Of a DNA stretch of 28,107 nt, positions 78-14,395 are shown piece by piece. A program made the position numbers and the translations under genes. The stretch is from an uncultured Candidatus Saccharibacteria bacterium (lineage in GTDB: Bacteria; Patescibacteriota; Saccharimonadia; Saccharimonadales; UBA4665), in the NCBI GenBank assembly GCA_964595295.1, contig CAZQPT010000005.1, positions 1 to 28,107 on the forward strand, given 5' to 3'. The notes under the pieces were generated by a model. That model was not told where the DNA came from and made no database searches. It was given only the letters and a program-made list of their open reading frames with translations. Within the stretch, counting starts at the first letter, position 1, and every line of letters begins with the position of its first letter.

Positions 78-1607
78 TTAACGACGCGTTAATGGGGCGT
101 GGCCAAGTGGTAAGGCACCAGTTTTTGGTACTGGCATTCGGGGGTTCGAATCCCTCCGCCCCAGCCAATTTCCATTTTCGTTACATTCGGCTATTTTATT
201 GAACGGAAAACGTAATGTTGACCGAAGTAATTTACCACTAAGCTCTAAGTTCGAATGTATGAGTTTTAGCAAAGCTCGTTTTTTATCAATTCCGCCTTTT
301 TCGAATAGTTTGGGCGCATGTTTTGAGAGTTTTAACAGATGAGCTATGGTGCTTAAATTATCTTTCGCCATAAGTTCGATTTTATTTCTACGCTTGGTTA
401 AAGTTTCGATTTTGCTGGCATATTCTTGGCGCTTTTTCTCGTAAAATTCGGGGCTTATGTTGCCGTCTACTTTGTCGTCATACATGTTTTCAATTCTAAG
501 CTCGTACTTTTTGATCTCGGCGTTTAGTGTAGCCAGCCTATCGGCATGTTTACTACTGTCTTGTTTTTTGAGTGCTTTGACCTTCTGGCTGACTTCAATA
601 TAGGCCTGTTCGGGAATGGCAATTTTTCGTATGGTTTCTTTGAGTTGTTTGGTGAGGGCTTTTTCATTCACATACGACGCACCATGCTTGCCGCCAGTCT
701 GTGTGCAATGGCCATAGATGTACTTGCCGTCTTTCTTTTGTTCAAAGGTTATGCGGCGTCCACAGTCGGCGCAGGTGATCAGGCCTCGATAAGGGTACGG
801 CAGACCGGCATAAATAGCTGGTTTGACATTATAGCCCTCTCGCACCGCTTCAACTTTGGCAAATAGCTTTTCACTAATAATGCGCTCGTACTTGTGCGGA
901 TAGAGCTTGCCCTCAACGCACATCTCGCCTTTGTAAAAGGTGTTGGTTAGAATGCGGTAAATCTGGGCAGTGGCTAACTTCACACCGAACTCGCTTTTTA
1001 GATGTTTGCGGATTAGCTTCATGGAACTGACGCCGGTGGCATAATGCTTGTAAATCGCTTCGACTACTTGAGCTTCAAACTTATCTATTTCGATCCACTT
1101 TTTGCCGTCCACTTGTGTGACATTTTTATAGCCATATGGTGCTTCACCAGTCCATAGGCCGTCTCGACGCATTTGCTCAAACCGACGCCTGACGTTATCG
1201 CTAACGATTCTAGAGTAGTGTTCAGCGGTTGTTTCACCGATACCAAGCATAAACCACTCGTTGGCCGAACTTCTAGCGTTTAATTTTAGGTGGTCAGAAA
1301 TGAAATGTATCTCTATTTTGCCAGCATGACAGAGCTTTCGTAGTGCTCGTGTTTCGTCGGCGCTGCTATCTCTAGAAAAGCGGTCAATTTTGTCAAAGAC
1401 TACGGCAACTATATCTAGCTCTGCCTGAATACGGGTAATGATCTCGGCGAATTGTTTACGACCCTCTTTGAAAGCACTTTCTTGGAACTGGCATAGCAGA
1501 GAGCTGGTAAACTCTTTGTCGGCATAGTCTTGCAGCCGGTAGATTTGCGCTGGCAGGGCGTCCTTTTGGTCGTCGGTGGAAACTCTGGCTATGAGATATG
1601 CTTTCAT
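78..1607 (-). CDS. Large serine recombinase (resolvase catalytic domain, recombinase domain, zinc ribbon, coiled coil)
   Basis: Catalytic ARVSTDDQ, DKIDRFSR, GEAPYGY, CADCG...HC zinc ribbon, coiled coil. Start moved from GTG 1622 to ATG 1607 because AGAGGG sits just upstream and MKAYLIARVS is a typical N-terminus. The C-terminal WLGRRDSNPRMPVPKTGALPLGHAP is the antisense tRNA. Confidence 0.93.
   Translation of the reverse strand: MKAYLIARVSTDDQKDALPAQIYRLQDYADKEFTSSLLCQFQESAFKEGRKQFAEIITRIQAELDIVAVVFDKIDRFSRDSSADETRALRKLCHAGKIEIHFISDHLKLNARSSANEWFMLGIGETTAEHYSRIVSDNVRRRFEQMRRDGLWTGEAPYGYKNVTQVDGKKWIEIDKFEAQVVEAIYKHYATGVSSMKLIRKHLKSEFGVKLATAQIYRILTNTFYKGEMCVEGKLYPHKYERIISEKLFAKVEAVREGYNVKPAIYAGLPYPYRGLITCADCGRRITFEQKKDGKYIYGHCTQTGGKHGASYVNEKALTKQLKETIRKIAIPEQAYIEVSQKVKALKKQDSSKHADRLATLNAEIKKYELRIENMYDDKVDGNISPEFYEKKRQEYASKIETLTKRRNKIELMAKDNLSTIAHLLKLSKHAPKLFEKGGIDKKRALLKLIHSNLELSGKLLRSTLRFPFNKIAECNENGNWLGRRDSNPRMPVPKTGALPLGHAPLTRR
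93..167 (+). tRNA. tRNA-Gln (anticodon TTG), CCA encoded
   Basis: Acceptor stem TGGGGCG (93-99)/CGCCCCA (157-163); D arm GCCAAGTGGTAAGGC; anticodon arm CCAGT-TTTTGGT-ACTGG; T arm GGGG-TTCGAAT-CCC; ends GCCA at 164-167; 75 nt. Confidence 0.97.
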
Positions 1608-1646
1608 GTACCCTCTGCCCACCAGTTAGTTATGTTTATTATACCG

Positions 1647-1742
1647 TTAATCATCGTCATCTAGGCCTACTTCGTTGGCAATTTCTTGCAGTATCTGGAA
1701 ATACGCCAACCACGCGTCTAATTCGTCGGCTGGCATACCCAT
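1647..1742 (-). CDS. Unannotated 31-aa acidic ORF MGMPADELDAWLAYFQILQEIANEVGLDDDD
   Basis: Translated by hand. ATG 2 nt after the Rep stop, AGGTG SD-like motif upstream, TAA at 1647-1649. It fills the Rep-recombinase gap. Below the ORF-track length cutoff. Confidence 0.5.
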   Translation of the reverse strand: MGMPADELDAWLAYFQILQEIANEVGLDDDD

Positions 1743-1744
1743 TG

Positions 1745-2587
1745 CTACACCTGTTGCTGCTCTCTGGTTTGTTTGATGTTTTCTACCTGCTCACGAGTAA
1801 AGATGAGGGTTTTGCCCCACTCGTTGCGCCGTTCCCAGACAGGACTAAGGAACGTATACCAGTCGTCAGGGTTATATTCTTTGACTGGTCGGTTTAGCCC
1901 CGTTGATACCCAGTAACGTTTACGGCCACGAAATAGTGGCATTTCTTTGATTAGGTATTTTGTGAGGTAATTGGTGAGCTTTTGACGGTCTTGCGGCGTA
2001 TCTGTAATTTTGTAGACTTCATCGTATCCGAGCGTGTAGCTTGGTAGGTCGTAAACTAGGCGACCCTTCTTTCTAAGGTGTTTGTTGGTTTTTGGATTTA
2101 TTGCTGGCATAACTTTGCCTTTGTAGCCCTTGAATAGGGCGTGAAAGTGGAGTGCGCCGTCACCTTGTAGTTCAGCGACTATGACGTACTCAAAGCTGCC
2201 TTTACGCTTTTTCTCGTTATCGAACCACGTTTCCATTTGTTTGCGGCATTTTTCAATGTCATCTCGGTGCTTTGCAAATGTAAAGGTGACGTATAGCTCA
2301 AAGGTGTTGCAATGAATATAGCCAGTGAGCTGTTTTTTAGCCCGTCTGCGTGATCGCTCTATCGTGGTCTCACTACTTTCGTTTTGTTTAGCCTGCTTTT
2401 TGAGTTTTTTAATTTTCTTGGCTTCACCAATTAGTTCCATGCCAGTTAGCTTTTTATCTTTGGGGTAGTCGGGTACGTAGACTTTGACGTTGAAGTCGTC
2501 GTAGGTGGCTATAGCATGGATTCGATTAGTAGCGTCAACGTGATGTGTCTTGCCTAAAACTTGCCATAACTTGGTCAGGTTATTCAT
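1745..2587 (-). CDS. HUH rolling-circle replication initiator (Rep), two-tyrosine type
   Basis: Motif I YVTFTF, motif II HFHAL (HUH), motif III YLTKYLIK with two Tyr, C-terminal RKRYWVS; AGAGGG upstream of ATG. Confidence 0.82.
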   Translation of the reverse strand: MNNLTKLWQVLGKTHHVDATNRIHAIATYDDFNVKVYVPDYPKDKKLTGMELIGEAKKIKKLKKQAKQNESSETTIERSRRRAKKQLTGYIHCNTFELYVTFTFAKHRDDIEKCRKQMETWFDNEKKRKGSFEYVIVAELQGDGALHFHALFKGYKGKVMPAINPKTNKHLRKKGRLVYDLPSYTLGYDEVYKITDTPQDRQKLTNYLTKYLIKEMPLFRGRKRYWVSTGLNRPVKEYNPDDWYTFLSPVWERRNEWGKTLIFTREQVENIKQTREQQQV

Positions 2588-2605
2588 GACAATGACCCTC
2601 TATGT

Positions 2606-2677
2606 GTCCCGTTAATCAAGTTAAACGGGACTGCGGGCATACGCCCGCGCGGGTGCAGCGAGATTCGCTTAGCACCC
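2606..2677. other. Three back-to-back GC-rich hairpins upstream of rep (candidate replication origin or control structure)
   Basis: GTCCCGTT/AACGGGAC (2606-2631); GCGGGC/GCCCGC (2633-2648); GGGTGC-AGCGA/TCGCT-GCACCC (2651-2677). The hairpins are seen; the function is inferred. Confidence 0.55.
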
Positions 2678-2760
2678 ACGAGTTGCGGATTTCGGTTATT
2701 CCTTAATCCTAAATGCATTTTAAGTTCACTCAATTTCAATTCCCCCTTTCTTTTGGCAGT

Positions 2761-2785
2761 AAAAAACCACCTCATGTTTGGGTGG
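2761..2785 (-). terminator. Intrinsic terminator upstream of rep
   Basis: On the minus strand, a CCACC/GGTGG stem with a 9-nt loop is followed by six T. Confidence 0.65.
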
Positions 2786-2811
2786 CTTCATGCACGAAAA
2801 GAGGTTTCGTC

Positions 2812-2838
2812 TTAGATCATTAGTACGAGTTTGATCAT
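2812..2838 (-). CDS. Candidate 8-aa leader peptide MIKLVLMI
   Basis: Strong SD AAAGGAG (2850-2844), 5-nt spacer, ATG 2838, TAA 2814-2812. Too short to confirm from sequence. Confidence 0.3.
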   Translation of the reverse strand: MIKLVLMI

Positions 2839-3006
2839 TGGCGCTCCTTTGGTTCCATTAAAAAACAGACACCCAAACAGTTTAGTTTGTAGTGTCCGTC
2901 ACGTAGCGGCGCTCTTTTCTCTCCCGTCAGTTGCCTTATCGTACAACTGCTAATAGGTGACGCTCTTTCGTTTCTGGCATTAGTTTTGCATGCCGGACTG
3001 TAGCAT

Positions 3007-3035
3007 ATTGTACGACACCATGCTTATGGTTGCAA
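3007..3035 (-). promoter_or_regulatory. Leftward sigma70 promoter with a palindromic operator in its spacer
   Basis: TTGCAA-17 bp-TACAAT on the minus strand. The spacer contains ACCAT-GCTT-ATGGT (3017-3030). Confidence 0.55.
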
Positions 3036-3078
3036 GCAAAATCTGTGGTGAGGTGTAAGTCTATTGTGTTTGCCCTAC

Positions 3079-3148
3079 AATCCCCGCAGCAGCGGAATTG
3101 TAACACACGCCTAGCGGCGCGTGTTGTTGGGCTGTTTAAGCGGGGATT
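3079..3148. repeat. Long imperfect inverted repeat / nested hairpin
   Basis: AATCCCCGC (3079-3087)/GCGGGGATT (3140-3148) enclosing AACACACGCC-TAGC-GGCGCGTGTT (3102-3125). Confidence 0.6.
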
Positions 3149-3176
3149 TATAACGTCAGAACAGATGAAGGTCTAC

Positions 3177-3205
3177 TTGCATAATTTGCGAAAATGCTGT
3201 ATCAT
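3177..3205 (+). promoter_or_regulatory. Candidate sigma70 promoter for the sugar-enzyme cluster
   Basis: TTGCAT-17 bp-TATCAT, followed by SD TAAGGAG and ATG 3226. Confidence 0.55.
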
Positions 3206-3225
3206 ATTAAGATTAAGGAGTTAGT

Positions 3226-3774
3226 ATGCCCCCACTGAGAGAAACGCCTATTGTTGTAGATCGCCGCTTAGACGGTGAAACTTTGCATGAGTTGAGAGAT
3301 GTAGGGCATGGCCACCGAGTTAACGTTGTTGACGCAAGTTACGATATTCCTCGTGGAGCAAGGGTCGTAAAGTTCCCCGGTACTTCGGCTCAGGCACTTG
3401 AAGCCGTAGTGCGCATTATTCCTATTGAGGGTGAAAATAATGAATTGGGCTGTTCGCCTATTGTAGTTATGGACGCAGACGCTGAGCTTGAGAGCCAGTT
3501 TACTGACGACGGAACTATCAACTATGAGCATATAGCAAAACGGGCTGCGGCTACATTCTTTAAGGTTGGCACACAACTTAATGAACTAGAGATCGGCACA
3601 GAGGTTGACTGGCAAGACTTGCAATACCGATACCGCCAAGATAGCAGCGAGGGAGAGGGTTTCTATAGCATGGCAAATGGCTCACCTGAGACATCATTGT
3701 TTATTCGCACAATTGATGAGCTGCCTTTTGCGTGCGCCAGCGTAGTTGTTGGTCATTCTCAGCGTACAGCGTAG
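3226..3774 (+). CDS. RbsD/FucU-family protein (pyranase/mutarotase-like), divergent
   Basis: GHGHRVNVVDASY resembles the family GHGD-x5-DA motif; FYSMA...FIRTIDELPF resembles FY...IRTGE; SD AAGGAG. Confidence 0.65.
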   Translation: MPPLRETPIVVDRRLDGETLHELRDVGHGHRVNVVDASYDIPRGARVVKFPGTSAQALEAVVRIIPIEGENNELGCSPIVVMDADAELESQFTDDGTINYEHIAKRAAATFFKVGTQLNELEIGTEVDWQDLQYRYRQDSSEGEGFYSMANGSPETSLFIRTIDELPFACASVVVGHSQRTA

Positions 3775-3786
3775 TATACTCAAAAC

Positions 3787-4218
3787 ATGAAGTTCGCAGT
3801 TGCAGGAGACCATTACACCGTAGACCTAATGGAGACAGTGGTTAAATTCTTGAAACCAAAGAATATCGCTATACAGAATCTTGGCACTACCGACCCCAAT
3901 ACAAAGATCAGTCTACAAGAAATAATTCCAGCAGTTGCTAGTAAAGTGCAGTCGGGTGAAGTAGATTTCGGTATTCTTGCCTGTGGTACTGGTGTCGGGG
4001 TCGAGATCGGGGCTAATCGTTTTAAGGGTGTCAGGGCTTCACTTTGTAGGGACGCAGAGCAAGCAAAGAACGCACGTGTTTATGATGACGCAAATGTTTT
4101 ATGTCTAGGCTCGTGGTATAAAGATGATTTTAAGCAAATACTTAGCGCTTGGCTGGACAATAATTTCGACGGTAACGAAAAACGCATAAAAATGCTGAAG
4201 GATTTTGATAATTTATGA
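3787..4218 (+). CDS. RpiB/LacA/LacB-family sugar isomerase with an atypical active site
   Basis: GDH, LGT, GILACGTGVG, ANRFKGVRA, DANVLCLG. Several canonical RpiB residues are substituted, so no gene symbol is given. Confidence 0.88.
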   Translation: MKFAVAGDHYTVDLMETVVKFLKPKNIAIQNLGTTDPNTKISLQEIIPAVASKVQSGEVDFGILACGTGVGVEIGANRFKGVRASLCRDAEQAKNARVYDDANVLCLGSWYKDDFKQILSAWLDNNFDGNEKRIKMLKDFDNL

Positions 4219-4844
4219 GCGAAATTATAGATATATCCCTACCGATTAGCACCAACATGCCCATATATCCTGGCACTGGAGAAACTAAAATTACGCCTGT
4301 TATAAGTGCCAGTGGGAGTTCTGTACTATCAGAAATATCTATGACTTCACATGCTGGTACGCATATTGACGCCCCGAATCATGCACTCGATAGTGATCAG
4401 GGCATTGATAGCCTAGACCTTGAACTATTTTTTGGTAAGTGCCGCGTACTAGATTTAACCAAGTGCGAAATAGCAATTACCCAAGCTGATTTAGAAGCCT
4501 ACGCCGTTCAAGCAAACGAACGTTTGTTGTTTAAGACCAGCAATTCCGCACGTGGCTTTGAAACATTTTATGACGACTATATTTACCTAGACGGCCAAGC
4601 TGCACGATACTTAGGCAAGATTGGCGTTAAGCTCGTAGGTATAGATAGCCTATCTATCAAGCAACGGGGGTCAAAGGACAATACTGCCCATACAGCTTTG
4701 CTATCAAATGGCATACCAATTATTGAGGGGTTGAATCTGGCTCATGTTGAAGCAGGAGAATATACGCTTTGCGCACTACCACTGGCGTTTCAGGGTATTG
4801 ACGGTTCGCCAACTAGAGCCGTACTAATGCCAGTATCAGGTTGA
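4215..4844 (+). CDS. Cyclase-family metal-dependent hydrolase (kynurenine formamidase-like)
   Basis: HAGTHIDAPNH (HxGTHxDxPxH), GIDSLS, H...LL...IIEGL, DGSPTRAV; ATGA overlap with the upstream gene. Confidence 0.9.
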   Translation: MSEIIDISLPISTNMPIYPGTGETKITPVISASGSSVLSEISMTSHAGTHIDAPNHALDSDQGIDSLDLELFFGKCRVLDLTKCEIAITQADLEAYAVQANERLLFKTSNSARGFETFYDDYIYLDGQAARYLGKIGVKLVGIDSLSIKQRGSKDNTAHTALLSNGIPIIEGLNLAHVEAGEYTLCALPLAFQGIDGSPTRAVLMPVSG

Positions 4845-4870
4845 CAAAACAGAGGTGTGTGCGCTAAAAT
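4841..4870 (+). promoter_or_regulatory. Near-consensus promoter firing antisense into the NYN gene 3' end
   Basis: TTGACA (4841-4846), 18 bp, TAAAAT (4865-4870); no plus-strand ORF follows. Confidence 0.55.
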
Positions 4871-4876
4871 AACAAG

Positions 4877-4933
4877 TATCACCATGACCAGGCAGGCCTA
4901 AGGTTTCGACCGACCGCTACTCCTGGTCTTTTT
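4877..4933 (+). ncRNA. Candidate ~57-nt structured RNA antisense to the NYN gene end
   Basis: Outer stem GACCAGG (4886-4892)/CCTGGTC (4922-4928) plus TTTTT; inner GGT-TTCG-ACC tetraloop hairpin; upstream promoter. The start is estimated. Confidence 0.4.
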
Positions 4934-5440
4934 AGTTGGCGTATATTCTAGTTTTAGCCTTAACTGGTTGATCCTGACGATATCTTTGGTAAACCGACGC
5001 AATAACTTCGAGAAGTGATCATTTGGCACCATGACATGCAGCAGTTTGTCTTTTTCTTTCAGGTACTCGACCAAGCAGTGAAAATCACCGTCACCAGTAA
5101 CAATAATCGCTTGATCGTAGTTGTCGATAACCTTTGCGGCAGCATATAGCACTAACTCAGCGTCTACATTACCTTTAACCACTGTTTTGCCGTTCACTTT
5201 GTATTCTGTTGTGGGCTTAAATATGAGGTGATAGCCCATGTTTTGTAGCCTGTCATACAGTGATTCTTGTCCGGCCATTTGCCCGATAAACAAATAGGCC
5301 TTTTCTACGCCATACTTATTTTTGAGATACAGGCGAAACTTACGAAAATCCAGTGTCCAACCAGCACTTTTAACACCTAGGTTTAGGTTTTGGCTGTCAA
5401 TAAACGCATAGACAGTCTGGGGCTTATTTTTGTCACTCAT
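4898..5440 (-). CDS. NYN-domain (LabA/DUF88, PIN-like) putative ribonuclease
   Basis: FIDSQNL, KGNVDAEL and VTGDGDF acidic motifs. Confidence 0.9.
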   Translation of the reverse strand: MSDKNKPQTVYAFIDSQNLNLGVKSAGWTLDFRKFRLYLKNKYGVEKAYLFIGQMAGQESLYDRLQNMGYHLIFKPTTEYKVNGKTVVKGNVDAELVLYAAAKVIDNYDQAIIVTGDGDFHCLVEYLKEKDKLLHVMVPNDHFSKLLRRFTKDIVRINQLRLKLEYTPTKKTRSSGRSKP

Positions 5441-5526
5441 CTGCGCTCTATTATCTCACTGACGTTATCTTTAGGCCAGTCCGATCTGCACTATGCAACT
5501 ACCGTAAATAATGATAGCTTTAGTCT

Positions 5527-5805
5527 ATGGCTATAGATCACGAACAAGGACAAACACCCGAAGTTATCATAGGCGGCACATACGATCATTTCGAGGGTAC
5601 AAGCTACCGAGTGGACGCAGTTGTTACTCGTGCCGAAGATTACGAGCGAACACACCAGCTATCAGAGGACGTTATATACACCCAGCTAAATGACGGTGAA
5701 GTTAATCCAGCTGGCACTCAATATACTCGCTCAAAGACTCAATTCCTTTTCGGCACTGTCGAGGTCGAGGGCAACGAAGTTCCAATCTTCACTTTGCGAG
5801 CTTAG
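5527..5805 (+). CDS. DUF1653-like small protein
   Basis: GGTYDHFEGTSYRV...VIYTQL...YTRSKTQF...VEGNEVPIF matches the family pattern YxHFKGxxYxV...VVY...W.RP..MF...VPRF as recalled. Confidence 0.6.
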   Translation: MAIDHEQGQTPEVIIGGTYDHFEGTSYRVDAVVTRAEDYERTHQLSEDVIYTQLNDGEVNPAGTQYTRSKTQFLFGTVEVEGNEVPIFTLRA

Positions 5806-5831
5806 TTCAAAGTTGCGAAGCTCATCTACTA

Positions 5832-5842
5832 GCCCCAGCCAA
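5832..5842 (+). repeat. tRNA-Gln 3'-end copy GCCCCAGCCAA (att-like)
   Basis: Identical to 158-168; directly followed by a strong hairpin. Confidence 0.65.
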
Positions 5843-5885
5843 AGTAAAAGCACCATGTCCGTAAGGATTTGGTGCTTTTACTTTG
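5840..5885. terminator. Perfect 16-bp inverted repeat (terminator-like)
   Basis: CAAAGTAAAAGCACCA/TGGTGCTTTTACTTTG with an internal TCC-GTAA-GGA loop. Confidence 0.75.
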
Positions 5886-5904
5886 CATGAGTGGGTTAAC
5901 AGAA

Positions 5905-5994
5905 GGTTCGGTGGAGCGAGGACGCGCGCAGGAATGTATTCCGAGCACGCCGCAGTGGAAAAGCACGGAGTGCGCTACCCCTAATCCCCAGTCA
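5905..5994 (+). repeat. Miniature element A inside T-arm-like sequence, ending in a degenerate tRNA 3' end
   Basis: GGTTCG-GTGGAGCGAGGACGCGCGCAGGAATGTATTCCGAGCACGCCGCAG...GCGCT-ACCCCT. The following CCCTAATCCCCAGTCA (5979-5994) matches tRNA 152-167 at 12/16. Confidence 0.7.
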
Positions 5995-6044
5995 TTACGA
6001 ACTACATCTGTAGAACTTAGCCAGACTAAGTGAGAGTTAGAACC

Positions 6045-6070
6045 AAAGACTTCCTAGGAAGTCTTTTTTA
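6045..6070. terminator. Perfect palindrome plus T-tract
   Basis: AAAGACTTCCTAGGAAGTCTTT (6045-6066) followed by further T. Confidence 0.7.
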
Positions 6071-6086
6071 TTGCTACAATTAACAA

Positions 6087-6779
6087 ATGAGAAGACAGCA
6101 AGAGATCTGGCTGAAAGAGCATACGGATAAGGGCACCCTACCAACAATGGCAAACATAGAGCCAGCAAGCGGTGTCATCCTATTTAGCGATTGGCTCGTT
6201 AAAAATGGCACTCTCTTTTCTGGAAAAGCAGTTGATATCGGTTGCGGCAAGGGACGCAACAGTGTTTATTTGGCAACATTAGGGTTTGAAGTATGGGCGC
6301 TTGAGTATATTGAACCAGCTATTGAAGCCTCAAAGGAGCTTGCATGTAGCAGAAAGGTGACTAATGAGATCCATTTTGAGCTTACTGAAATAGATAAGCC
6401 TTGGAAAATTGAAGACAACTTTTTTGATGTAGCAGTTGACTCTTTTTCAAGTATCGATATCGAGACAAAGCAAGGTCGTGAAATTTGCAGAGATGAGATG
6501 CTAAGAACTCTTAAGCCCGGGGGATACGCTCTCGTTACCGCATGTTCCGCGGAGGATGAATGGGAAAAAGAACTAATTGCAAATCATCCAGGCTCAGAAC
6601 CGAACAGTACTGTTTGGCCACAGAATGGTAAATTTCAAAAAGACTATACAGAGTCAGAGCTGCGCAAATTCTACAGTGTATTTGAAGTAGTTGAGCTTAA
6701 GTCCATCAACAAACCAGCATTTAAGCTAGGTCGAGGCGGAACTGCTACCAATTTGTGGATGGTTTTGCGAAAGAAATAA
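6087..6779 (+). CDS. Class I SAM-dependent methyltransferase (TehB-like motif I)
   Basis: VDIGCGKGRNSVYLA, FDVAVD and LKPGG motifs. Confidence 0.9.
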   Translation: MRRQQEIWLKEHTDKGTLPTMANIEPASGVILFSDWLVKNGTLFSGKAVDIGCGKGRNSVYLATLGFEVWALEYIEPAIEASKELACSRKVTNEIHFELTEIDKPWKIEDNFFDVAVDSFSSIDIETKQGREICRDEMLRTLKPGGYALVTACSAEDEWEKELIANHPGSEPNSTVWPQNGKFQKDYTESELRKFYSVFEVVELKSINKPAFKLGRGGTATNLWMVLRKK

Positions 6780-6807
6780 GTTCTAACCTGGTACATTATA
6801 CTCAGCC

Positions 6808-6845
6808 ATACAAAAAAGACCTGCTTTATGTAGGTCTTTTTGTAT
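6808..6845. terminator. Bidirectional terminator hairpin
   Basis: ATACAAAAAAGACCT...AGGTCTTTTTGTAT, preceded by CTCAGCCA. Confidence 0.75.
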
Positions 6846-6859
6846 TGATTGAACAGAAC

Positions 6860-6933
6860 GGTTCGGCGTAGCGGCCGCAGAGAGCGTAGAAGCGACGAGG
6901 CAAAGCCGAGGGAAGCGCTATCCCTCCGCCCCA
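6860..6933 (+). repeat. Miniature element B splitting a tRNA-Gln T-arm copy; best attR candidate
   Basis: GGTTCG + 54-nt insert + ATCCCTCCGCCCCA, compared with the tRNA GGTTCG-A-ATCCCTCCGCCCCA. Confidence 0.7.
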
Positions 6934-6941
6934 AATATTGG

Positions 6942-7037
6942 GGTACAGTGAAGCAAGACTCGCACAGGAGTGTACATATAATTATATGTACACTACGAGC
7001 ACGCCGCAGCGCAAAAGCGCGAAGCACGCCATCCCCT
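6942..7037 (+). repeat. Miniature element C, homolog of A, with a 26-bp perfect palindrome
   Basis: Aligns by eye with 5905-5982 along its length (CAGGA.TGTA, CGAGCACGCCGCAG, AAAAGC.CG.AG). Palindrome AGTGTACATATAATTATATGTACACT at 6969-6994. Confidence 0.8.
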
Positions 7038-7105
7038 TATTTACGACTTTGCTAGCTTTTGTCTTTATTGCTATCGTCATAGCCATGATAGCCACAAGGT
7101 TGCTT

Positions 7106-7414
7106 TTAAAGACGTTTTGAGCGACGAGCGTTAAGTATGCTTGCGGTCAGATCTGATGACCAGCGGAGTATTCTATCTCCGTAATCCGGACTTGCTTTGC
7201 CACATGGAGTAGTCATTGACATTGCTGTTTCACCTATGGATTCCAGGCGCTCTGTAGAACAGTACGAGCCATTGTTGGCATCGACTAGCTCTTGTGGTAC
7301 CCCCTCTAGTTCCGGTAATGCTTGGAGTTCCATGACCTGTTTTCGCTCGTTACAATAGTCCGCGTACGAACACGGTTGTTGAGAAAATGGACATATTAAA
7401 ACTGATTCGGCCAT
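7106..7414 (-). CDS. Hypothetical protein, 102 aa, five Cys (CPFSQQPCSYADYC)
   Basis: Strong SD TAAGGAG and an upstream TATAAT; no family recognised. Confidence 0.65.
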   Translation of the reverse strand: MAESVLICPFSQQPCSYADYCNERKQVMELQALPELEGVPQELVDANNGSYCSTERLESIGETAMSMTTPCGKASPDYGDRILRWSSDLTASILNARRSKRL

Positions 7415-7479
7415 TTTACTCCTTAATTAATATTTATTATACTATGTAATATGATTTTGCGCGAAGATCGTAACGTAAA

Positions 7480-8931
7480 TTAGATAATCGGCGACGGAGC
7501 ATAAGCGACAGCCTCAGGGTGTTTGTTAACGATGATCTGCACTTTATCCACGAAAGTAGTCACCTGGGAACGAGCGAGGCCGGTCAGCTCGAGCGGATCA
7601 GCAATGGCGTCCGTGAGGGTTTTTTTATCGACAGGCAAGTCAGGATCATTAGCTAGTCTATCAAACAGATCATTCTCGGCAGTGCCTTTTTCGCGCATTT
7701 CTAAGGCCACTGCAACAGCGTGTTTCTTAATAAGCGCGTGAGCTTCTTCTCGCCCCATACCGGCTTTAATACAGGACATTAAGACCATGGTAGTCATCAA
7801 GAAGGGGAGGAAGCGTTGTAGCTCTTTGTCGATAACCGCTGGGTAAGCGCCGAAATTATCCAGAATAGTTAACGTGGTCAGGAAAATGCCATCGGTAGCA
7901 AAAAACGCGTCAGGAATAATAACCCTACGGGCGGCCGAGCAGCTAACATCGCCCTCATTTGACTGATTAGACGCCAGCTCACCGGCCGTGGTGACATGCC
8001 CCGACAAAATAGCGCTCAGGCTACGAACCCGCTCGGATTTAGCGGCATTCATTTTATGAGGCATAGCGTTGGAGCCGACCTGACCAGGTTTAAAGCCTTC
8101 GGTTGCCAGTTCACGACCAGCCATATCTCTCAAGCAGTTCGTAAAGTTAACCGGACCAGTCACCGACTGTTTTAGGGCGGTAACTACATCAAAGTCCATG
8201 GAGCGAGGATAAACCTGTCCAACGCTACCCAAAATATTAGAAAAACCCAGCGCTTTAGCGATACGAGCTTCAAGCTCCGCGACCTTAACTGGGTCGCCTT
8301 CAAATAAATCGAGCATATCTTGTTGTGTACCGACCGGGCCTTTTATTCCTCGCAAAGCATATGAATCTCGCAGAGCAGATATTCTTTGGTATCCACCAAG
8401 CAATTCTTCGCCGTAGTTCGCGAAGCGCTTACCCAAAGTAATCGTTTGAGCTGCCACGTTATGAGTTCGCCCAACCATGGCCAGGCCACTGTATTGAATG
8501 GCCCTGGCGGCAAAACGATCAAGTGTCGCCACCGCGCGATCACGAATAATATCCAGGCCGCTTAATATCTGGTACTGCTCGATGTTTTCGGTTAGATCAC
8601 GGGAGGTCATGCCTTGCTGTATATACTGGTGCCCGGCCATCATGTTAAACTCTTCAATCCTCGAATTTACGTCGTGATGACTAACTTTTTCGCGTGCCCT
8701 AATGGACGCCAGGTCGATGTCCGACTGAGCTGTTACGTAATCGTTTATCGCGGCTTTCGGTATGTTTAAGCCCAGGTCGGCCTGAGCCCGCATGATCTCG
8801 ATCCACAAACCGCGTTCCATATAAATTTTGGCTTCGTCGGAGAAGACCGCGACCATCTGCTTGCTAGGGTAGCGACTAGCCAGAACATTTACCGGTGGCT
8901 GTACGTCACCGGCATAATCAAACTTAGTCAT
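7480..8931 (-). CDS. purB: Adenylosuccinate lyase
   Basis: LASRY N-terminus, GRTHNVAAQTITLGKR, signature GSNAMPHKMN; SD GGAGG. Confidence 0.93.
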   Translation of the reverse strand: MTKFDYAGDVQPPVNVLASRYPSKQMVAVFSDEAKIYMERGLWIEIMRAQADLGLNIPKAAINDYVTAQSDIDLASIRAREKVSHHDVNSRIEEFNMMAGHQYIQQGMTSRDLTENIEQYQILSGLDIIRDRAVATLDRFAARAIQYSGLAMVGRTHNVAAQTITLGKRFANYGEELLGGYQRISALRDSYALRGIKGPVGTQQDMLDLFEGDPVKVAELEARIAKALGFSNILGSVGQVYPRSMDFDVVTALKQSVTGPVNFTNCLRDMAGRELATEGFKPGQVGSNAMPHKMNAAKSERVRSLSAILSGHVTTAGELASNQSNEGDVSCSAARRVIIPDAFFATDGIFLTTLTILDNFGAYPAVIDKELQRFLPFLMTTMVLMSCIKAGMGREEAHALIKKHAVAVALEMREKGTAENDLFDRLANDPDLPVDKKTLTDAIADPLELTGLARSQVTTFVDKVQIIVNKHPEAVAYAPSPII

Positions 8932-8984
8932 GATTACTGGCCTCCAAGGTTATTAACTATCATTATGTCTTTAATCTGATCAAA

Positions 8985-10874
8985 CTACAACTTCAGCAAA
9001 GATCTCAGTTCGATGGTGCGATCAATCGGCAGTTTGTAATAGTCGCTGGAACTGAGAGCGTTGCGAGCCATTATTATATAAAGTGATTTGCGCCACCTGG
9101 CCAGATTATGACGCTTTGTCGGAACTACCTTTGTCTGGGATATAAAGTAGGCCACCTCACTTTGATCGAAATCTAGTTCAGGGCTGACGCCGCGCATTGA
9201 TTCAAGGGTTTTAGGGATATTCGGTATGTCGTGATAACCGTACGAAAGACTAACATGGCTGATGCCGTCATCGTATTCGAGCCCATCGAACACGTAGCGT
9301 TTATTTTCTGGTATATGCGGATGGGTCGTTATGTTTACGGATAGTACGACAACTTTTTCGTGCAATTCATGCAATTCTTCTACCGCGGCATGAAGCGCCA
9401 GTGGCGCTAGATCATCGTGATGTCCGATATATACGGCTTGTCCTGGCACCCTCGTAATTGGCGGCCGCCTCAAGCGAACTTTATCTATGAATAATTGAAG
9501 TGGGCCTTCCATGGCCCGACGCTCGCTGGTTACTATCCGTTGACCCCTCATCCAGGTATCTATAATCAGATAAATTATTAACGCGATAACGATTGGTAAC
9601 CAGCCGCGGTGAAAAATCTTAGGCAAGTTAGATGCCACAAAAAGCAAGTCAACAGATACAAACAAGGCAACCGCTAAAGCCATTAAATTAACCGTCTGGC
9701 GCTTGATGCCATAAATGACAACTATAAACAACAGGCTGTCTATAGCCAGGGTACCGCTAACCGCGATACCGTAGGCTGTCGCCAGTTTTTGCGCCGAGCC
9801 AAATAGTATCACGAACAGAGCAACAACAGCGTACAAAAGCATATTGGTGAGCGGAATATAGATCTGGCCTTTTTCGTGGTCGGACGTGTGACGGATTAGC
9901 ATTTTAGGCAGGAAACCTAACTGCACGGCCTGACGAGTTAATGAAAAGGCACCAGAAATAACGGATTGAGAAGCTATTAACGTAGCGACCGCCGCCAGCA
10001 AAACTACCAACAGGCGCGTGCTTTCCGGGAACAGCAAGAAAAAGGGACTGCTCGAACTAGATGGATGCGCCAGCATTAGCGCGCCTTGCCCCATATAACA
10101 GGCTATTAACGCGGGAAAGACTAGCATAAACCAGGCTCTGGCAATTGGAGCGCGCCCGAAGTGCCCCATATCCGCGTAGAGCGCCTCGGCACCAGTTACC
10201 GCCAGCACTACCGCGCCCATGGCGACGAAAGCCACAACCGGTTGGCTAGCAAAAAACTGAATCGCGGTTAAAGGCGAGAGCGACTGTAGTATTCCGGGGT
10301 GCTGAATAATTTGCCCGATGCCGCCGGCACCAATCATCACGAACCAAACCAACATTACCGGACCAAATAAACGACCAATAAGGTTAGTGCCGTATTTTTG
10401 AATCGCGAACAACGATGTCAATATCACTAGTGTTAAAGGCACGACAAATTGATGAAGACTCGGCGCCACGACGTGTAATCCCTCGACAGCGGATAGTACC
10501 GAGATCGCCGGAGTAATAGCGCTATCACCATAGAACAAAGACACTCCGACGATGCCGAGAAGTATAAAAAACCATTTCGAGTGAGGACGCAGTTTACTCC
10601 TTTTAATAATAGCTACCAAGGCCATGATGCCGCCCTCGCCCTTATTATCAACTTTCATGATAAAGCTCAGGTATTTTATAGCGACAACAATAGTGACTGC
10701 CCAAACAACTAACGAAATAATGCCGTAAACGTTAGTCTGGTTAACTTTTAGGTGCTGTCCGTTAGGCCCGAATATAGCCTGTATCGCGTAGAGTGGGCTG
10801 GTACCGATGTCACCGAACACGACGCCTAAAGCGCCTAGGGCCAAGCCGGCGATACCTTTTTTTGTTTTACTCAT
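8985..10874 (-). CDS. kup: KUP/HAK/KT potassium transporter
   Basis: GVVFGDIGTSPLY, DNKGEGG, GAEALYADMGHFG, TLIASQSVISG, GQIYIP, AYGIAV. Confidence 0.96.
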   Translation of the reverse strand: MSKTKKGIAGLALGALGVVFGDIGTSPLYAIQAIFGPNGQHLKVNQTNVYGIISLVVWAVTIVVAIKYLSFIMKVDNKGEGGIMALVAIIKRSKLRPHSKWFFILLGIVGVSLFYGDSAITPAISVLSAVEGLHVVAPSLHQFVVPLTLVILTSLFAIQKYGTNLIGRLFGPVMLVWFVMIGAGGIGQIIQHPGILQSLSPLTAIQFFASQPVVAFVAMGAVVLAVTGAEALYADMGHFGRAPIARAWFMLVFPALIACYMGQGALMLAHPSSSSSPFFLLFPESTRLLVVLLAAVATLIASQSVISGAFSLTRQAVQLGFLPKMLIRHTSDHEKGQIYIPLTNMLLYAVVALFVILFGSAQKLATAYGIAVSGTLAIDSLLFIVVIYGIKRQTVNLMALAVALFVSVDLLFVASNLPKIFHRGWLPIVIALIIYLIIDTWMRGQRIVTSERRAMEGPLQLFIDKVRLRRPPITRVPGQAVYIGHHDDLAPLALHAAVEELHELHEKVVVLSVNITTHPHIPENKRYVFDGLEYDDGISHVSLSYGYHDIPNIPKTLESMRGVSPELDFDQSEVAYFISQTKVVPTKRHNLARWRKSLYIIMARNALSSSDYYKLPIDRTIELRSLLKL

Positions 10875-10892
10875 AAAATCAGTATATACGAT

Positions 10893-11396
10893 TTACAACG
10901 ACGCCGGGTCGACAACCTCAAAATCCGCGTAGGGCAGGGAACTGTAGGAATCAACGTAAGCGACAATTCGATACTTACCGGCAGTAGAGAATAGATTCTT
11001 CCAGTTACCGTAGCTACCCGACACCGTAGCGTTGGGAGCAATACCTATCTGTCTGGATTCGTCGGGACAGTTTTGCGCGGAGGCGGTGTCATGAATCCTA
11101 ACCCAGGCTGAGCCATTTTTTTTATAAACGCTTAACGGCTCGGCCGGGCATTTATTTGTTAGAAATATGGTACTGTTAAAATCGTTTTTTAGGCTAAATG
11201 TCACCTCTTCGCCAACTACGTATTTAGTATAGGGGGTAGTTAATTCCATGTGGCCGACTGGTTGATCACGAGTTCTTATATGAGAAGCTACGCGGTACAT
11301 ACCTATAGATATAGCCGTTAGTAGCACCAGGTAGAAAATAATTAGCTTCACGTAAGTGTGGTGCGGCTTTAGGGCATATCTAAGTTCACCCCTCAT
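10893..11396 (-). CDS. Membrane-anchored beta-rich (Ig-like) hypothetical protein
   Basis: N-terminal TM helix, beta-strand pattern, GKYRIV, two Cys. Start set at 11396 (ATGA overlap with the upstream stop, GGAGG upstream); track start is 11414. Confidence 0.6.
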   Translation of the reverse strand: MRGELRYALKPHHTYVKLIIFYLVLLTAISIGMYRVASHIRTRDQPVGHMELTTPYTKYVVGEEVTFSLKNDFNSTIFLTNKCPAEPLSVYKKNGSAWVRIHDTASAQNCPDESRQIGIAPNATVSGSYGNWKNLFSTAGKYRIVAYVDSYSSLPYADFEVVDPASL

Positions 11397-14308: not shown

Positions 14309-14318
14309 ATTATCAGTA

Positions 14319-14327
14319 ATTATAACA
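14319..14327 (-). promoter_or_regulatory. Extended -10 promoter of the leftward redox operon
   Basis: TGTTATAAT, perfect TGn-TATAAT, 10 nt before ATG 14308. Confidence 0.6.
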
Positions 14328-14395
14328 GCAAGCCGCATATGCTTGAACCTCTATGAGATTAGTTGAGCGACAATAACCGTATGGATTCGTAAAAA

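What the first reader, a model, noticed from the sequence alone, without database searches (positions are those of the whole stretch)
5803..7037. Stack of tRNA-Gln 3'-end relics delimiting single-gene cassettes
Seen: the DUF1653-like gene and the methyltransferase are each followed by the same ordered unit. It runs: stop codon + GTTC(A/T)AA, a tRNA-like end (CCCCAGCCA at 5833, CTCAGCCA at 6801), a strong terminator hairpin, AACAGAA(C)GGTTCGG, a structured insert, then GCGCTA(T/C)CCCT..CCCCA. Both genes also carry their own leaderless-type promoter, so each unit is self-contained. Inference: repeated site-specific capture at tRNA-Gln has built an integron-like cassette array whose spacers derive from the tRNA T-arm/acceptor end, possibly serviced by the serine recombinase rather than an IntI. 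I know of no named system with this layout.
Basis: partly seen in the sequence, partly recalled or inferred. Interest (0 to 1): 0.82.

Follow-up and report, generated by a model that had tools for sequence, protein, structure and literature searches.

The report
Serine-recombinase island stack behind tRNA-Gln
The repeated 'tRNA-like ends' are the right-hand attachment sites of mobile DNA that a large serine recombinase inserted at the very tip of a glutamine tRNA gene. They are interleaved with copies of a separate small GC-rich element that normally sits just behind tRNA genes in this group of small-genome bacteria. Together they show a rarely described way of stacking accessory genes at a tRNA gene.

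Summary

1. **Attachment-site arms.** The short tRNA-like ends at 5812-5841 and 6780-6808 are attR sites, each a P arm plus a 6-nt core CAGCCA. They belong to elements integrated at the CCA end of tRNA-Gln by the large serine recombinase (LSR) at 168-1622.
   - LSR orthologs abut a tRNA 3' end in 54 of 67 metagenome loci and 15 of 19 genome loci.
   - The same two arm motifs occur fused to the LSR-side arm, as attP-type junctions.
   - They also occur 4-9 kb beyond the LSR, and their last 6 nt match the target tRNA (Gln, Asn or Trp).
   - At least 11 loci carry 2-4 arms spaced 0.6-1.9 kb apart, which makes short cassette arrays.
2. **GC-rich companion module.** 'Terminator + GGTTCG + GC-rich insert + tRNA tail' is a separate gene-less module.
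   - In relatives it lies 67-93 nt behind many different tRNA genes.
   - It was found in 56 of 151 family genomes, at 1-27 copies each.
   - It is absent from about 50 LSR loci. This scan has met it before on other genomes.

Window 168-6808 is best read as one composite LSR element, or two stacked ones, pushed between tRNA-Gln and its native module B. Integron membership fails. A serine-recombinase cassette stack remains plausible. No excision junction was seen.

The parts
93..167 (+). tRNA-Gln(TTG). Its T-arm/acceptor forms the B arm, and its last 6 nt (CAGCCA, 162-167) are the shared core of attL.
   Evidence: ARAGORN and Rfam at 63.9 bits. The identical tRNA sits next to LSR genes in relatives.
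168..1622 (-). Large serine recombinase (LSR). The open frame runs on through the antisense of the tRNA to a stop at 78. The P' arm of attL (ATTTCCATTTTCGTTACA...) lies inside its 3' end.
   Evidence: Pfam Resolvase, Recombinase and Zn_ribbon_recom domains. The R-V-S-T catalytic motif is invariant among 6 orthologs. The P' arm is conserved in orthologous loci. The last ~29 aa are the antisense of the tRNA.
1745..2775 (-). Rolling-circle type Rep (1745-2587) plus a 63-aa ORF (2584-2775), which is a possible Xis/RDF or regulator of unknown function.
   Evidence: Pfam REP_ORF2-G2P at 1.2e-10, with a weak RepSA match. A Rep gene follows the LSR in G144, G150, G082, L113, L127 and L155.
3226..5805 (.). 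Cargo of element part E1: an RbsD-like gene, RpiB, a cyclase, a NYN-domain gene on the minus strand (4898-5440), and DUF1653 (5527-5805).
   Evidence: Pfam. None of these genes is syntenic with the same-genus genome G001.
5808..5841 (+). attR1: P arm 'motif A' (TTCAAAGTTGCGAAGCTCATCTACTAG, core part 5812-5832), then CCC, then the core CAGCCA (5836-5841).
   Evidence: The same motif followed by the tRNA-matching core lies 4-9 kb beyond LSR orthologs in 29 of 67 metagenome loci. G082 has 4 copies. In L144 it is fused to the LSR P' arm.
5840..5885 (+). Terminator hairpin A, which acts as the B'-type flank. Its homologs sit directly after tRNA-Gln in G012 and G028.
   Evidence: Inverted repeat I1. 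Blast matches at G012:C1:350825 and G028:C3:97316 lie immediately after the tRNA.
5899..5994 (+). Unit A, a type-1 GC-rich tRNA-companion module. It runs GGTTCG (5905-5910), conserved insert with two hairpins, then tail ACCCCTAATCCCCAGTCA (5977-5994).
   Evidence: Covariance model R1 scores it at 95.8 bits, E 9.5e-23. The tail matches the genome's own tRNA-Gln(CTG) at 15 of 18 positions and the resident tRNA-Gln(TTG) at 13 of 18 (by eye).
6036..6779 (+). Part E2: an inverted GTTAGAACC (6036-6044), hairpin 6045-6066, -10 box TACAAT 6073-6078, and a SAM methyltransferase (6087-6779).
   Evidence: Homologs are patchy (8 of 151 genomes) and sit in other contexts.
6780..6808 (+). attR2, the outer right end: P arm 'motif B' (GTTCTAAC-N12-TATACT) plus the core CAGCCA (6803-6808).
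   Evidence: Found in 9 of 151 genomes with 0 control hits, always downstream of a tRNA-Gln. In L127 it is fused to an LSR P' arm, an attP-type junction. A contig in run X3 diverges right after 6807.
6809..6933 (+). The native tRNA-Gln downstream region: terminator B (6813-6841) and unit B, a type-2 module with GGTTCG at 6860-6865 and a tail at 6920-6933 that is an exact 14-nt copy of the tRNA-Gln(TTG) 3' end.
   Evidence: Homologous terminators follow tRNA-Gln directly in G005 and G001. In G001 a type-2 unit follows as well; in G005 a different (type-3) unit does.
6936..7039 (+). Unit C, a 5'-truncated type-1 module with a perfect 13-bp palindromic hairpin (6969-6994) and the tail ...GCCATCCCC.
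   Evidence: R1 at E 1.1e-10. Palindrome I7. Fold z-score -2.75.

Best explanation
Two independent systems are superimposed here.

**A. The recombinase element (168-6808).** This is DNA integrated at the extreme 3' end of tRNA-Gln(TTG) by the large serine recombinase encoded at its left edge.
- The crossover lies within the last 6 nt of the tRNA gene (CAGCCA).
- attL is the tRNA (B arm) plus the recombinase-gene end (P' arm).
- The two short 'tRNA-like ends' are attR-type sites. Each is a conserved ~25-30-nt P arm (motif A at 5808-5835, motif B at 6780-6802) followed by the same 6-nt core.
- The most economical history is as follows.
  1. An LSR-Rep-cargo element (E1, ending in motif A) once sat at a tRNA-Gln whose downstream region was terminator A, unit A and the methyltransferase, followed by an older motif-B site.
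  2. Excision then used that outer site, so the flanking piece (E2) was picked up.
  3. The composite integrated here, pushing the native terminator B and unit B downstream.
- Two separate integrations give the same map and cannot be excluded.
- Because several attR-type sites follow one attL, the recombinase could in principle excise cargo sets of different length.

**B. The GC-rich companion module.** 'Terminator + split T-arm (GGTTCG | GC-rich insert | T-stem 3' strand and acceptor tail)' is a gene-less, lineage-specific selfish module.
- Its normal place is 67-93 nt behind a tRNA gene.
- Units A, B and C are such modules that were displaced by the insertions.
- How this module spreads is unknown.

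**Shown:** the sites, their conservation, their link to the LSR and to tRNA ends, and the independence of the two systems.
**Inferred:** recombinase activity, the crossover position, the order of events, and alternative excision.
For: **Recombinase and tRNA ends**
- The LSR domains and catalytic motif are intact.
- LSR orthologs abut a tRNA 3' end on the opposite strand in 15 of 19 family loci.
- The same holds in 54 of 67 metagenome loci: Asn 35, Gln 8, Arg 4, Gly 4, Trp 3.
- The closest orthologs (48-74% identity) are mostly at tRNA-Gln and also carry a Rep gene.
- The P' arm is conserved immediately after CCA.

**Arm motifs**
- Motif A plus 3 nt plus the last 6 nt of the local tRNA occurs 4-9 kb on the element side in 29 of 67 loci and never on the other side. 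The 6 nt are GAGCCA for Asn, CAGCCA or TAGCCA for Gln, and CTGCCA for Trp.
- attP-type fusions exist: motif B + core + P' in L127, and motif A + core + P' in L144.
- Motif B always lies downstream of a tRNA-Gln.

**Flanks**
- Terminators A and B are homologs of the terminators that directly follow tRNA-Gln in G012/G028 and in G005/G001.
- The tail of unit B is an exact 14-nt copy of the resident tRNA. The tail of unit A fits a different tRNA-Gln better.
- A variant contig diverges immediately after 6807.

**Module B is independent of the recombinase**
- 19-20 of 29 model hits lie 67-93 nt behind a same-strand tRNA of 12 or more identities.
- It occurs in 56 of 151 family genomes at 1-27 copies and is restricted to the order.
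- There are no hits in about 50 LSR loci.
- Genomes with the LSR and genomes with the unit overlap in 23 cases against 28.6 expected.
- All five pairs of hairpin 1 covary.
Against: - No excised circle or restored attB junction was seen in four soil metagenome runs. Only assembler contigs were available, and these drop rare forms.
- The LSR has not been tested. The crossover dinucleotide is unknown.
- The P and P' arms show no clear inverted symmetry.
- By textbook LSR rules, attL and attR are not substrates for further integration. Tandem stacks and P-P' junctions inside chromosomes (L144, G082 copy 1) therefore need either concatemer integration, use of attR as a pseudo-attB, or homologous recombination.
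- G001 has a six-cassette array but no detectable LSR homolog at E <= 1e-10 in a 92%-complete assembly.
- Terminator A homologs follow TTG-type tRNAs in other genera, so the 'foreign origin' of E2 rests on only 2 extra matches in an 18-nt tail.
- The mechanism of module B is unexplained.
Confidence: 0.65

Rival explanations
1. This is a true integron-like platform. Each 0.6-1.9 kb piece bounded by a P arm would be an independently mobile, recombinase-less cassette. The serine recombinase, acting in trans, would insert and excise these cassettes one at a time at the tRNA-Gln end or at existing P-arm sites.
For: - Arrays of 2-6 short, mostly single-gene pieces end in near-identical P arms in G001 contig 28, G082 and 11 or more metagenome loci.
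- P-P' type junctions occur inside arrays (G082 copy 1).
- The G001 array has no LSR of its own.
- Motif B places its TTCTAA 5 nt further from the core than the tRNA places TTCGAA. This is the offset expected between attP and attB half-sites of LSRs (from my own knowledge of LSR-DNA structures). An attR could therefore mimic an attB.
Against: - No circular single-cassette junction was seen.
- Methyltransferase homologs in 7 other genomes lack these boundaries.
- LSRs are directional and normally do not use attL or attR as targets.
- Decay of successive whole elements, or alternative excision, gives the same arrays.
- There is no platform promoter or attI equivalent, and the cassettes face both ways, each with its own promoter.
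Confidence: 0.2
2. The GC-rich units are the functional heart of the locus. On this reading they are structured RNAs or folded single-stranded DNA sites (attC-like) that the recombination machinery needs, rather than bystander selfish modules.
For: - Hairpin 1 covaries in all 5 pairs: covariation score 0.42 against 0.25 for shuffles and at most 0.11 for slid controls.
- GCGAAGC-type mini-hairpins recur, and the same heptamer sits in motif A.
- In the window and in G001 contig 2, a unit follows each attR.
Against: - No unit occurs in about 50 LSR loci, and there is no association between LSR and unit across 151 genomes.
- G016 has an island with an LSR but 0 units.
- The usual position of a unit is directly behind an intact tRNA with no island present.
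- Units decay and are truncated in this genome (contigs 31 and 32).
- There is no Rfam match, and units A and B fold no better than shuffles.
Confidence: 0.08
3. The relics were left by tyrosine-integrase genomic islands, the classical kind of tRNA-targeting integration with a crossover in the T-loop or anticodon loop. On this reading the serine recombinase is just a passenger.
For: - Classical tRNA islands leave 3' tRNA fragments.
- The unit tails begin in the T-loop, which is a known crossover sublocation for tyrosine integrases (from my own knowledge).
Against: - There is no tyrosine recombinase in the window, and only one in the whole assembly, on contig 9.
- The short sites share only the last 6-10 nt with the tRNA, not a block running from the T-loop to the end.
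- LSR genes abut the tRNA end with a 0-40 nt gap in dozens of loci.
- P arms are found fused to the LSR end.
Confidence: 0.04

Closest known systems
Tycheposons of Prochlorococcus (bioRxiv 10.1101/2020.12.28.424599)
   Same: - The elements carry an integrase module, a replication module and cargo.
- They integrate at a few tRNA genes.
- New arrivals push older elements outward.
- Remnants and partial tRNA sites are scattered through the resulting island, and adjacent host material is sometimes co-mobilised.
- A minority, 27 of 937, carry a large serine recombinase.
   Different: - Here the serine recombinase is the rule for a whole clade.
- The site is the last 6 nt of the tRNA gene rather than a longer 3' tRNA segment.
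- The right ends are conserved ~30-nt P arms, not partial tRNAs.
- Replication uses a rolling-circle Rep.
- The host is a 0.8-Mb soil bacterium. I infer it is Patescibacteria/CPR from genome size and relatives, but did not verify this.
Serine-recombinase elements that integrate into tRNA genes: filamentous phage phiRSM1 (tRNA-Ser 3' end) and Mycobacterium AICEs (tRNA-Leu), as cited in PMC3218068
   Same: - A serine recombinase targets a tRNA gene.
- It is combined with a rolling-circle type replication initiator (a gene-II-like or RepSA-like Rep).
- The paper calls such integration 'rare'.
   Different: - No filamentous-phage structural genes or FtsK-like transfer gene were detected among the element genes scanned with Pfam.
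- The cargo is metabolic.
- There are multiple attR-type sites per locus.
- The target range spans at least five tRNA types within one recombinase clade.
Mobile integrons (IntI, attI, attC cassette arrays)
   Same: It works somewhat like one: short, mostly single-gene pieces in a row, separated by a repeated recombination site, next to a recombinase gene.
   Different: - The recombinase is a serine recombinase, not a tyrosine IntI.
- There is no attI or Pc promoter.
- The sites are not hairpin-forming attC sites.
- The genes face both ways, each with its own promoter.
- Mobility of single cassettes is not shown.
Accretion and cis-mobilisable elements (CIMEs) at ICE attachment sites in streptococci; recalled from my own knowledge, not checked here
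   Same: - Tandem arrays of integrase-less pieces are flanked by att sites at one chromosomal site.
- They can be co-excised with a neighbouring element that supplies the recombinase.
   Different: Those systems use tyrosine integrases and much larger elements. Here the pieces are 0.6-1.9 kb and the recombinase is an LSR.
Gene-less GC-rich cassettes behind tRNA genes noted earlier in this scan (e1-991935, e1-732105, e1-2240573, e1-2032905)
   Same: The layout of units A, B and C is the same: tRNA, terminator, GC-rich hairpin block, then a duplicate of the tRNA's T-stem/acceptor tail with the T-loop split by the insert.
   Different: - Here the modules are displaced from the tRNA by island insertion.
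- Three of them are stacked at one locus.
- The type-1 insert family is confined to this order.

Membership tests
Large serine recombinase (phage-type serine integrase) | An N-terminal resolvase catalytic domain with the nucleophilic serine | tested here: met
   PF00239 at 2.2e-16, residues 9-155. R13-V14-S15-T16 is invariant in 6 orthologs.
Large serine recombinase (phage-type serine integrase) | A C-terminal recombinase domain plus a zinc-ribbon domain | tested here: met
   PF07508 at 2.7e-08 and PF13408 at 9.5e-07.
Large serine recombinase (phage-type serine integrase) | Catalyses attP x attB recombination at a central dinucleotide | not testable with these tools
   Only comparative evidence is available: attL, attR and attP-type junctions share a 6-nt core.
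Site-specific integrative element at a tRNA gene | A recombinase gene at one end, next to the intact tRNA | tested here: met
   The LSR ends at the tRNA 3' end here, in 15 of 19 genome loci and in 54 of 67 metagenome loci.
Site-specific integrative element at a tRNA gene | A direct repeat of the tRNA end at the far boundary | tested here: met
   CCCCAGCCAA (tRNA end plus one base) recurs at 5833-5842, and CAGCCA recurs at 6803-6808. In other loci the core tracks the tRNA type.
Site-specific integrative element at a tRNA gene | An excised circle or an empty site is observed | tested here: inconclusive
   No such joint appeared in Logan contigs of 4 runs. attP-type junctions exist in other contigs but are not shown to be circles.
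Mobile integron | An IntI-type tyrosine recombinase next to the array | tested here: not met
   There is no PF00589 match in the window. The single hit in the assembly is on contig 9.
Mobile integron | attC sites: imperfect palindromes that fold as hairpins, with R''-L''/L'-R' boxes | tested here: not met
   No local inverted repeat covers 5808-5841 or 6780-6808. The sites are conserved in sequence rather than in structure.
Mobile integron | Promoterless cassettes in one orientation, expressed from Pc | tested here: not met
   Genes in the G001 array face both ways. The methyltransferase has its own -10 box followed by 6 nt and ATG.
Tycheposon-like cargo element | An integrase module, a replication module and cargo, inserted at a tRNA, with older remnants distal to it | tested here: met
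   LSR, Rep and five cargo genes, followed by a second attR-bounded piece. Sequence relatedness to tycheposon genes was not tested.
Actinomycete integrative and conjugative element (AICE, pSAM2 type) | RepSA plus an FtsK/SpoIIIE-like Tra gene plus Int/Xis | tested here: not met
   RepSA scores only 19 bits, below the 34-bit cut-off, and no Tra domain is present.
tRNA-companion GC-rich module (a class internal to this scan, undescribed in the papers I searched) | Lies behind a tRNA plus terminator, has a split T-arm, and ends in a copy of that tRNA's tail | tested here: met
   19-20 of 29 model hits lie 67-93 nt behind a same-strand tRNA. The tails match the neighbouring tRNA. The tail of unit B matches the resident tRNA at 14 of 14 positions.

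The most novel reading that the evidence does not exclude
A clade of large serine recombinases in small-genome soil bacteria runs a cassette system at tRNA tips.
- The P arms mimic the tRNA half-site.
- Only the last ~6 nt need to be swapped to retarget the system among Gln, Asn, Trp, Arg and Gly tRNAs.
- Several attR-type sites behind one attL let the enzyme excise, reshuffle and re-insert cargo sets of different length.

This would be a serine-recombinase functional analogue of the integron, and a naturally 'core-programmable' integrase family.
Probability: 0.25. Interest if true: 0.8.

Novelty: new variant of a known kind. Interest (0 to 1): 0.62.

Why it matters
- **A rare mechanism may be common here.** Serine-recombinase integration into tRNA genes is described as rare (PMC3218068). 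Here it appears as the standard behaviour of a large recombinase clade: 77 of 151 family genomes carry homologs, and dozens of loci abut tRNAs.
- **A route to gene gain.** This gives small-genome bacteria, which have few other obvious routes to gene gain, a defined hot spot for accessory genes.
- **Testable sites.** The comparative data deliver candidate attP, attB, attL and attR sequences with a 6-nt core that changes with the target tRNA. These can be tested directly and are of interest for integrase engineering.
- **A caution for automated scans.** Displaced tRNA-companion modules can be mistaken for recombination spacers.

Tried and rejected
- **Rfam, E <= 1, whole window:** only the tRNA matched.
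- **Single-sequence folding of the units:** A and B fold no better than shuffles.
- **attR search by tRNA-end repeat or P' inverted repeat:** I looked for attR of orthologous elements as a 9-nt repeat of the tRNA end, or as an inverted repeat of P'. Nothing usable came out. The sites were found only after motif A was recognised.
- **Empty-site comparison between G144 and G082 (same genus):** at ~66% identity they are too diverged for exact boundaries.
- **LSR search in genome contigs and viral contigs:** no relatives passed.
- **Reads:** no excision or circle joints.
  - The joints 167/168 -> 6779/6780 and 167 -> 5809 have sides of only 23-30 nt in a region shared by many organisms. I could not interpret them.
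- **Terminal overlaps in small LSR contigs (a test for circles):** none.
- **Methyltransferase as a travelling cassette:** homologs elsewhere have no such flanks.
- **purB as a conserved anchor:** rejected.
- **Tail-duplicate scan behind all 18 tRNAs of this assembly:** no match at 3 or fewer mismatches in 14 nt. The relics decay, and many tRNAs sit at contig ends.
Full report
**What is in the sequence.** The window is contig 5 of an 808-kb, 70-contig assembly with 48.6% G+C. Genes and sites run in this order:

| Position | Feature |
|---|---|
| 93-167 (+) | tRNA-Gln(TTG) |
| 168-1622 (-) | Large serine recombinase (LSR); its open frame continues through the antisense of the tRNA to 78 |
| 1745-2587 (-) | Rolling-circle type Rep |
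| 2584-2775 (-) | 63-aa ORF |
| 3226-5805 | Five cargo genes, the last being DUF1653 |
| 6087-6779 (+) | SAM methyltransferase |
| 7106-7414 (-) | Unknown gene |
| 7480-8931 (-) | purB |

**The ordered unit is two things.** A blast of the window against 30 relatives gave two results that split it.

- **The GC-rich insert is dispersed.** The insert at 5904-5980 is a multi-copy sequence in many genera, at 77-91% identity.
- **The two terminators are ordinary tRNA-Gln terminators.** Homologs of the hairpins at 5833-5885 and 6813-6851 sit directly after tRNA-Gln in G012/G028 and in G005/G001.

The block 'terminator + GGTTCG + insert + tRNA tail' is therefore what normally follows a tRNA. The short pieces in front of it (5808-5841 and 6780-6808) are something else.

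**The short pieces are recombinase half-sites.**

- **The recombinase sits at tRNA ends.**
  - Homologs of the LSR occur in 77 of 151 family genomes.
  - In 15 of the 19 best loci, the LSR 3' end abuts the 3' end of a tRNA on the other strand. The closest orthologs are mostly at tRNA-Gln. More distant ones are at Asn, Asp, Trp, Arg or Gly.
  - Among 67 metagenome loci, 54 show the same arrangement: Asn 35, Gln 8, Arg 4, Gly 4, Trp 3.
- **One arm is conserved beside the recombinase.** The sequence right after CCA is conserved (ATTnnnnTTTTCGTTACAAA...). This is the P' arm, and it lies inside the end of the LSR gene.
- **Motif A marks the far end of the element.**
  - Motif A is the window's TTCAAAGTTGCGAAGCTCATCTACTAG. 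It recurs 4-9 kb on the element side in 29 of 67 metagenome loci and never on the other side.
  - It is followed by 3 nt and then the last 6 nt of the local tRNA: GAGCCA at Asn, CAGCCA at Gln, CTGCCA at Trp. In G082, whose tRNA-Gln ends in TAGCCA, the 6 nt are TAGCCA.
- **Motif B also marks island ends.**
  - Motif B is GTTCTAAC-N12-(G/T)ATACTCAGCCA (TATACT in the window, GATACT in most relatives). It occurs in 9 of 151 genomes with no hits for the reversed control.
  - It lies 1.2-12.8 kb downstream of a tRNA-Gln in G033, G007, G133 and G016. The G016 island begins with a distant LSR.
- **Both motifs occur fused to the P' arm.** These are attP-type junctions: motif B in L127 and motif A in L144.

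Motifs A and B are therefore P arms, and 5808-5841 and 6780-6808 are attR sites that share the core CAGCCA with attL.

One further detail fits LSR site geometry as I recall it from LSR-DNA structures, although I did not test it. TTCTAA in motif B lies 28 nt from the end of the core, and TTCGAA in the tRNA lies 23 nt from it. That 5-nt outward shift is the one expected between attP and attB half-sites. It would also explain why the P arm looks tRNA-like.

**How the stack was probably built.**

- The tail of unit B (6920-6933) is an exact 14-nt copy of the resident tRNA-Gln(TTG). Terminator B plus unit B is therefore the native downstream region, and everything from 168 to 6808 is inserted.
- Inside the insert, attR1 is followed by terminator A and unit A. 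The tail of unit A fits a tRNA-Gln with acceptor strand ATCCCCA better than it fits the resident tRNA. It matches the genome's own CTG isoacceptor at 15 of 18 positions, and G005's TTG gene has the same acceptor strand. It matches the resident tRNA at 13 of 18.
- The simplest reading runs as follows:
  1. An LSR-Rep-cargo element once sat at another tRNA-Gln.
  2. It excised using an outer motif-B site, taking terminator A, unit A and the methyltransferase with it.
  3. It integrated here as a 6.6-kb composite.
- Two successive integrations would give the same map.
- The L127 junction shows that circles or tandems with motif B next to an LSR end do exist.

**Cassette arrays.**

- In the same-genus genome G001, tRNA-Gln(CTG) is followed by a terminator and a type-2 unit. 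At least six mostly single-gene pieces then follow, including hydrolases, a kinase and a YdeI-like gene, in both orientations. Each ends in a motif-A-like or motif-B-like arm.
- G082 has four motif-A arms spaced 0.7-1.3 kb apart behind its LSR-Rep element.
- At least 11 metagenome loci carry 2-4 arms spaced 0.6-1.9 kb apart. Some of these loci are the same element sampled twice.
It does not show that single cassettes move:
  - Methyltransferase homologs in seven other genomes have no such flanks.
  - G001 lacks a detectable LSR.
  - Four metagenome runs gave no circle or empty-site joint. One contig does diverge right after 6807.

**The GC-rich units.**

- **Type-1 layout.** Fifteen type-1 copies align as follows:
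  - GGTTCG;
  - a near-invariant block (GGAGCGAGGACGCGCGCAGG);
  - a variable hairpin;
  - a second near-invariant block (CCGAGCACGCCRCAGYG);
  - a small hairpin, often C(GAA)G;
  - the T-stem 3' strand and acceptor tail of the neighbouring tRNA.
- **Structure.** Hairpin 1 is 98-100% paired, with double changes in all five pairs. The outer helix I proposed is not supported.
- **Copy number and position.** A covariance model finds 7 copies in this genome, 11 in G001, 10 in G012 and 0 in G016. Of 29 hits, 19-20 lie 67-93 nt behind a same-strand tRNA.
- **Neighbouring tRNAs.** The tRNAs involved include Ser, Leu, Tyr, Trp, Val, Ile, Glu, Asn, Met, Arg, Thr, Lys, His, Pro and Asp.
- **Upstream pairing.** An inverted copy of the T-stem 5' strand pairs with the GGTTCG region.
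- **Distribution.** The family is patchy: 56 of 151 genomes, 43 of 102 genera, 1-27 copies each. In a phylum-wide sample it was seen only in the window's own order.
- **Independence from the LSR.** It is absent from about 50 LSR loci and unrelated to LSR presence: 23 shared genomes against 28.6 expected.
- **Decay.** Copies are decayed or truncated on contigs 31 and 32 of this genome.
- **Other insert types in the same position.**
  - Type 2: unit B, contig 6, and G001 contigs 28 and 32.
  - Type 3: G012, G013, G005 and G028, with a covarying GCCAGTGGC hairpin.
- **Earlier notes.** Earlier notes of this scan describe the same kind of gene-less module on other genomes and also found no description in the literature. 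I treat them as leads and reached the same layout independently.
- **Open question.** How the module spreads, and why it copies the local tRNA tail, remains unexplained.

**Other claims.**

- 'Own leaderless promoter' is plausible for the methyltransferase.
  - The arrangement of a -10 box, 6 nt and ATG is a genome-wide feature: 65 of 614 long ORFs against about 18 at other spacings.
  - Methyltransferase homologs in unrelated contexts have it too.
- The interval up to purB is not a fixed frame.
  - purB was not found in G001, G007 or G118.
  - Synteny with G001 begins only at the cytochrome oxidase operon, at about 14392.

**Comparison with known systems.**

- Functionally the locus is closest to tycheposons. 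Those also carry integrase, replication and cargo modules, stack at tRNA genes and leave remnants. A minority (27 of 937) have large serine recombinases.
- It is also close to the few serine-recombinase elements known to enter tRNA genes. These are phiRSM1 at tRNA-Ser and Mycobacterium AICEs at tRNA-Leu. The paper that cites them calls such integration rare.
- It is not an integron:
  - there is no IntI;
  - there are no attC-type hairpin sites;
  - the genes face both ways with their own promoters.
- I rate it a new variant of a known kind.

**Verdict.**

The recombinase link and the exact junctions hold. The 'T-arm-derived spacer' and the integron analogy hold only loosely.
- The GC-rich block belongs to a different, still unexplained element.

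Noticed in passing
window 78-167: The LSR open frame continues about 29 codons through the antisense of tRNA-Gln, here and in orthologs (G144, G082, G135). The C-terminal tail of the integrated form is therefore encoded by the tRNA gene, and it would differ in the excised attP form.
   Followed up: partly
window 4874-4938: A ~60-nt stretch between the cyclase and NYN genes is 87% identical to sequences in two other genera (G015 contig 21, G002 contig 2). It includes a terminator-like hairpin at 4912-4928. It may be a conserved 3' element of the NYN gene.
   Followed up: no
window 168-14391: The whole interval from tRNA-Gln to the cytochrome oxidase operon has no synteny with the same-genus genome G001. 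It includes purB, Kup, ApbE, a ferric-reductase-like gene and an FAD/NAD oxidoreductase. purB was not found in G001, G007 or G118. The flexible region may therefore be about 14 kb.
   Followed up: partly
G000 contig 4, 15217-15600 (L004 718-1100): The genome's own tRNA-Gln(CTG) is followed by a ~270-nt piece with one small ORF. The piece ends in GGGGTTC-N14-ATCCCCAGCCA, another attR-like relic.
   Followed up: no
whole genome G000: A TANNNT box ends exactly 6 nt before ATG in 65 of 614 long ORFs, against a background of about 18. Only 145 of 614 ORFs have a Shine-Dalgarno-like motif. Leaderless mRNAs appear to be common in this organism.
   Followed up: partly
L032 (G016 contig 1, 314500-330500): A 12.8-kb island at an identical tRNA-Gln(TTG) starts with a distant LSR (20% identity). 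It carries two TrbC/VirB2-type pilin genes, a reverse transcriptase, an SMC-like ATPase and a PLD-like gene, and it ends in motif B.
   Followed up: partly
L016, L017, L018, L009 (G005, G012, G028, G013), about 60-200 nt after tRNA-Gln: A third insert type sits in the same split-T-arm position. It runs GGATTCGAAC, a hairpin GGGnnnGCCAGTGGCnnnCCC whose stem covaries between genera, a variable hairpin, and then an exact copy of the tRNA from CGAATCC to CCA.
   Followed up: no
window 5815-5821; units in L060, L064, L066, L070: The heptamer GCGAAGC recurs at hairpin tips in the units and inside motif A. As I recall, it forms an unusually stable DNA mini-hairpin. That hints at a single-stranded DNA stage, but this is untested.
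   Followed up: no
window 167/168 joined to 6779/6780 (runs X1, X3, X4): Assembler contigs join the tRNA-Gln end to the start of motif B, with sides of only 27-30 nt. They may come from other organisms, or from a form in which a P arm sits directly behind the tRNA. I could not explain them.
   Followed up: no
G000 contig ends (contigs 6, 26, 35, 47, 50, 61): Many contigs of this assembly begin or end at a tRNA gene or inside a GC-rich unit. The units therefore break the assembly, and their copy number here (7) is probably an underestimate.
   Followed up: no
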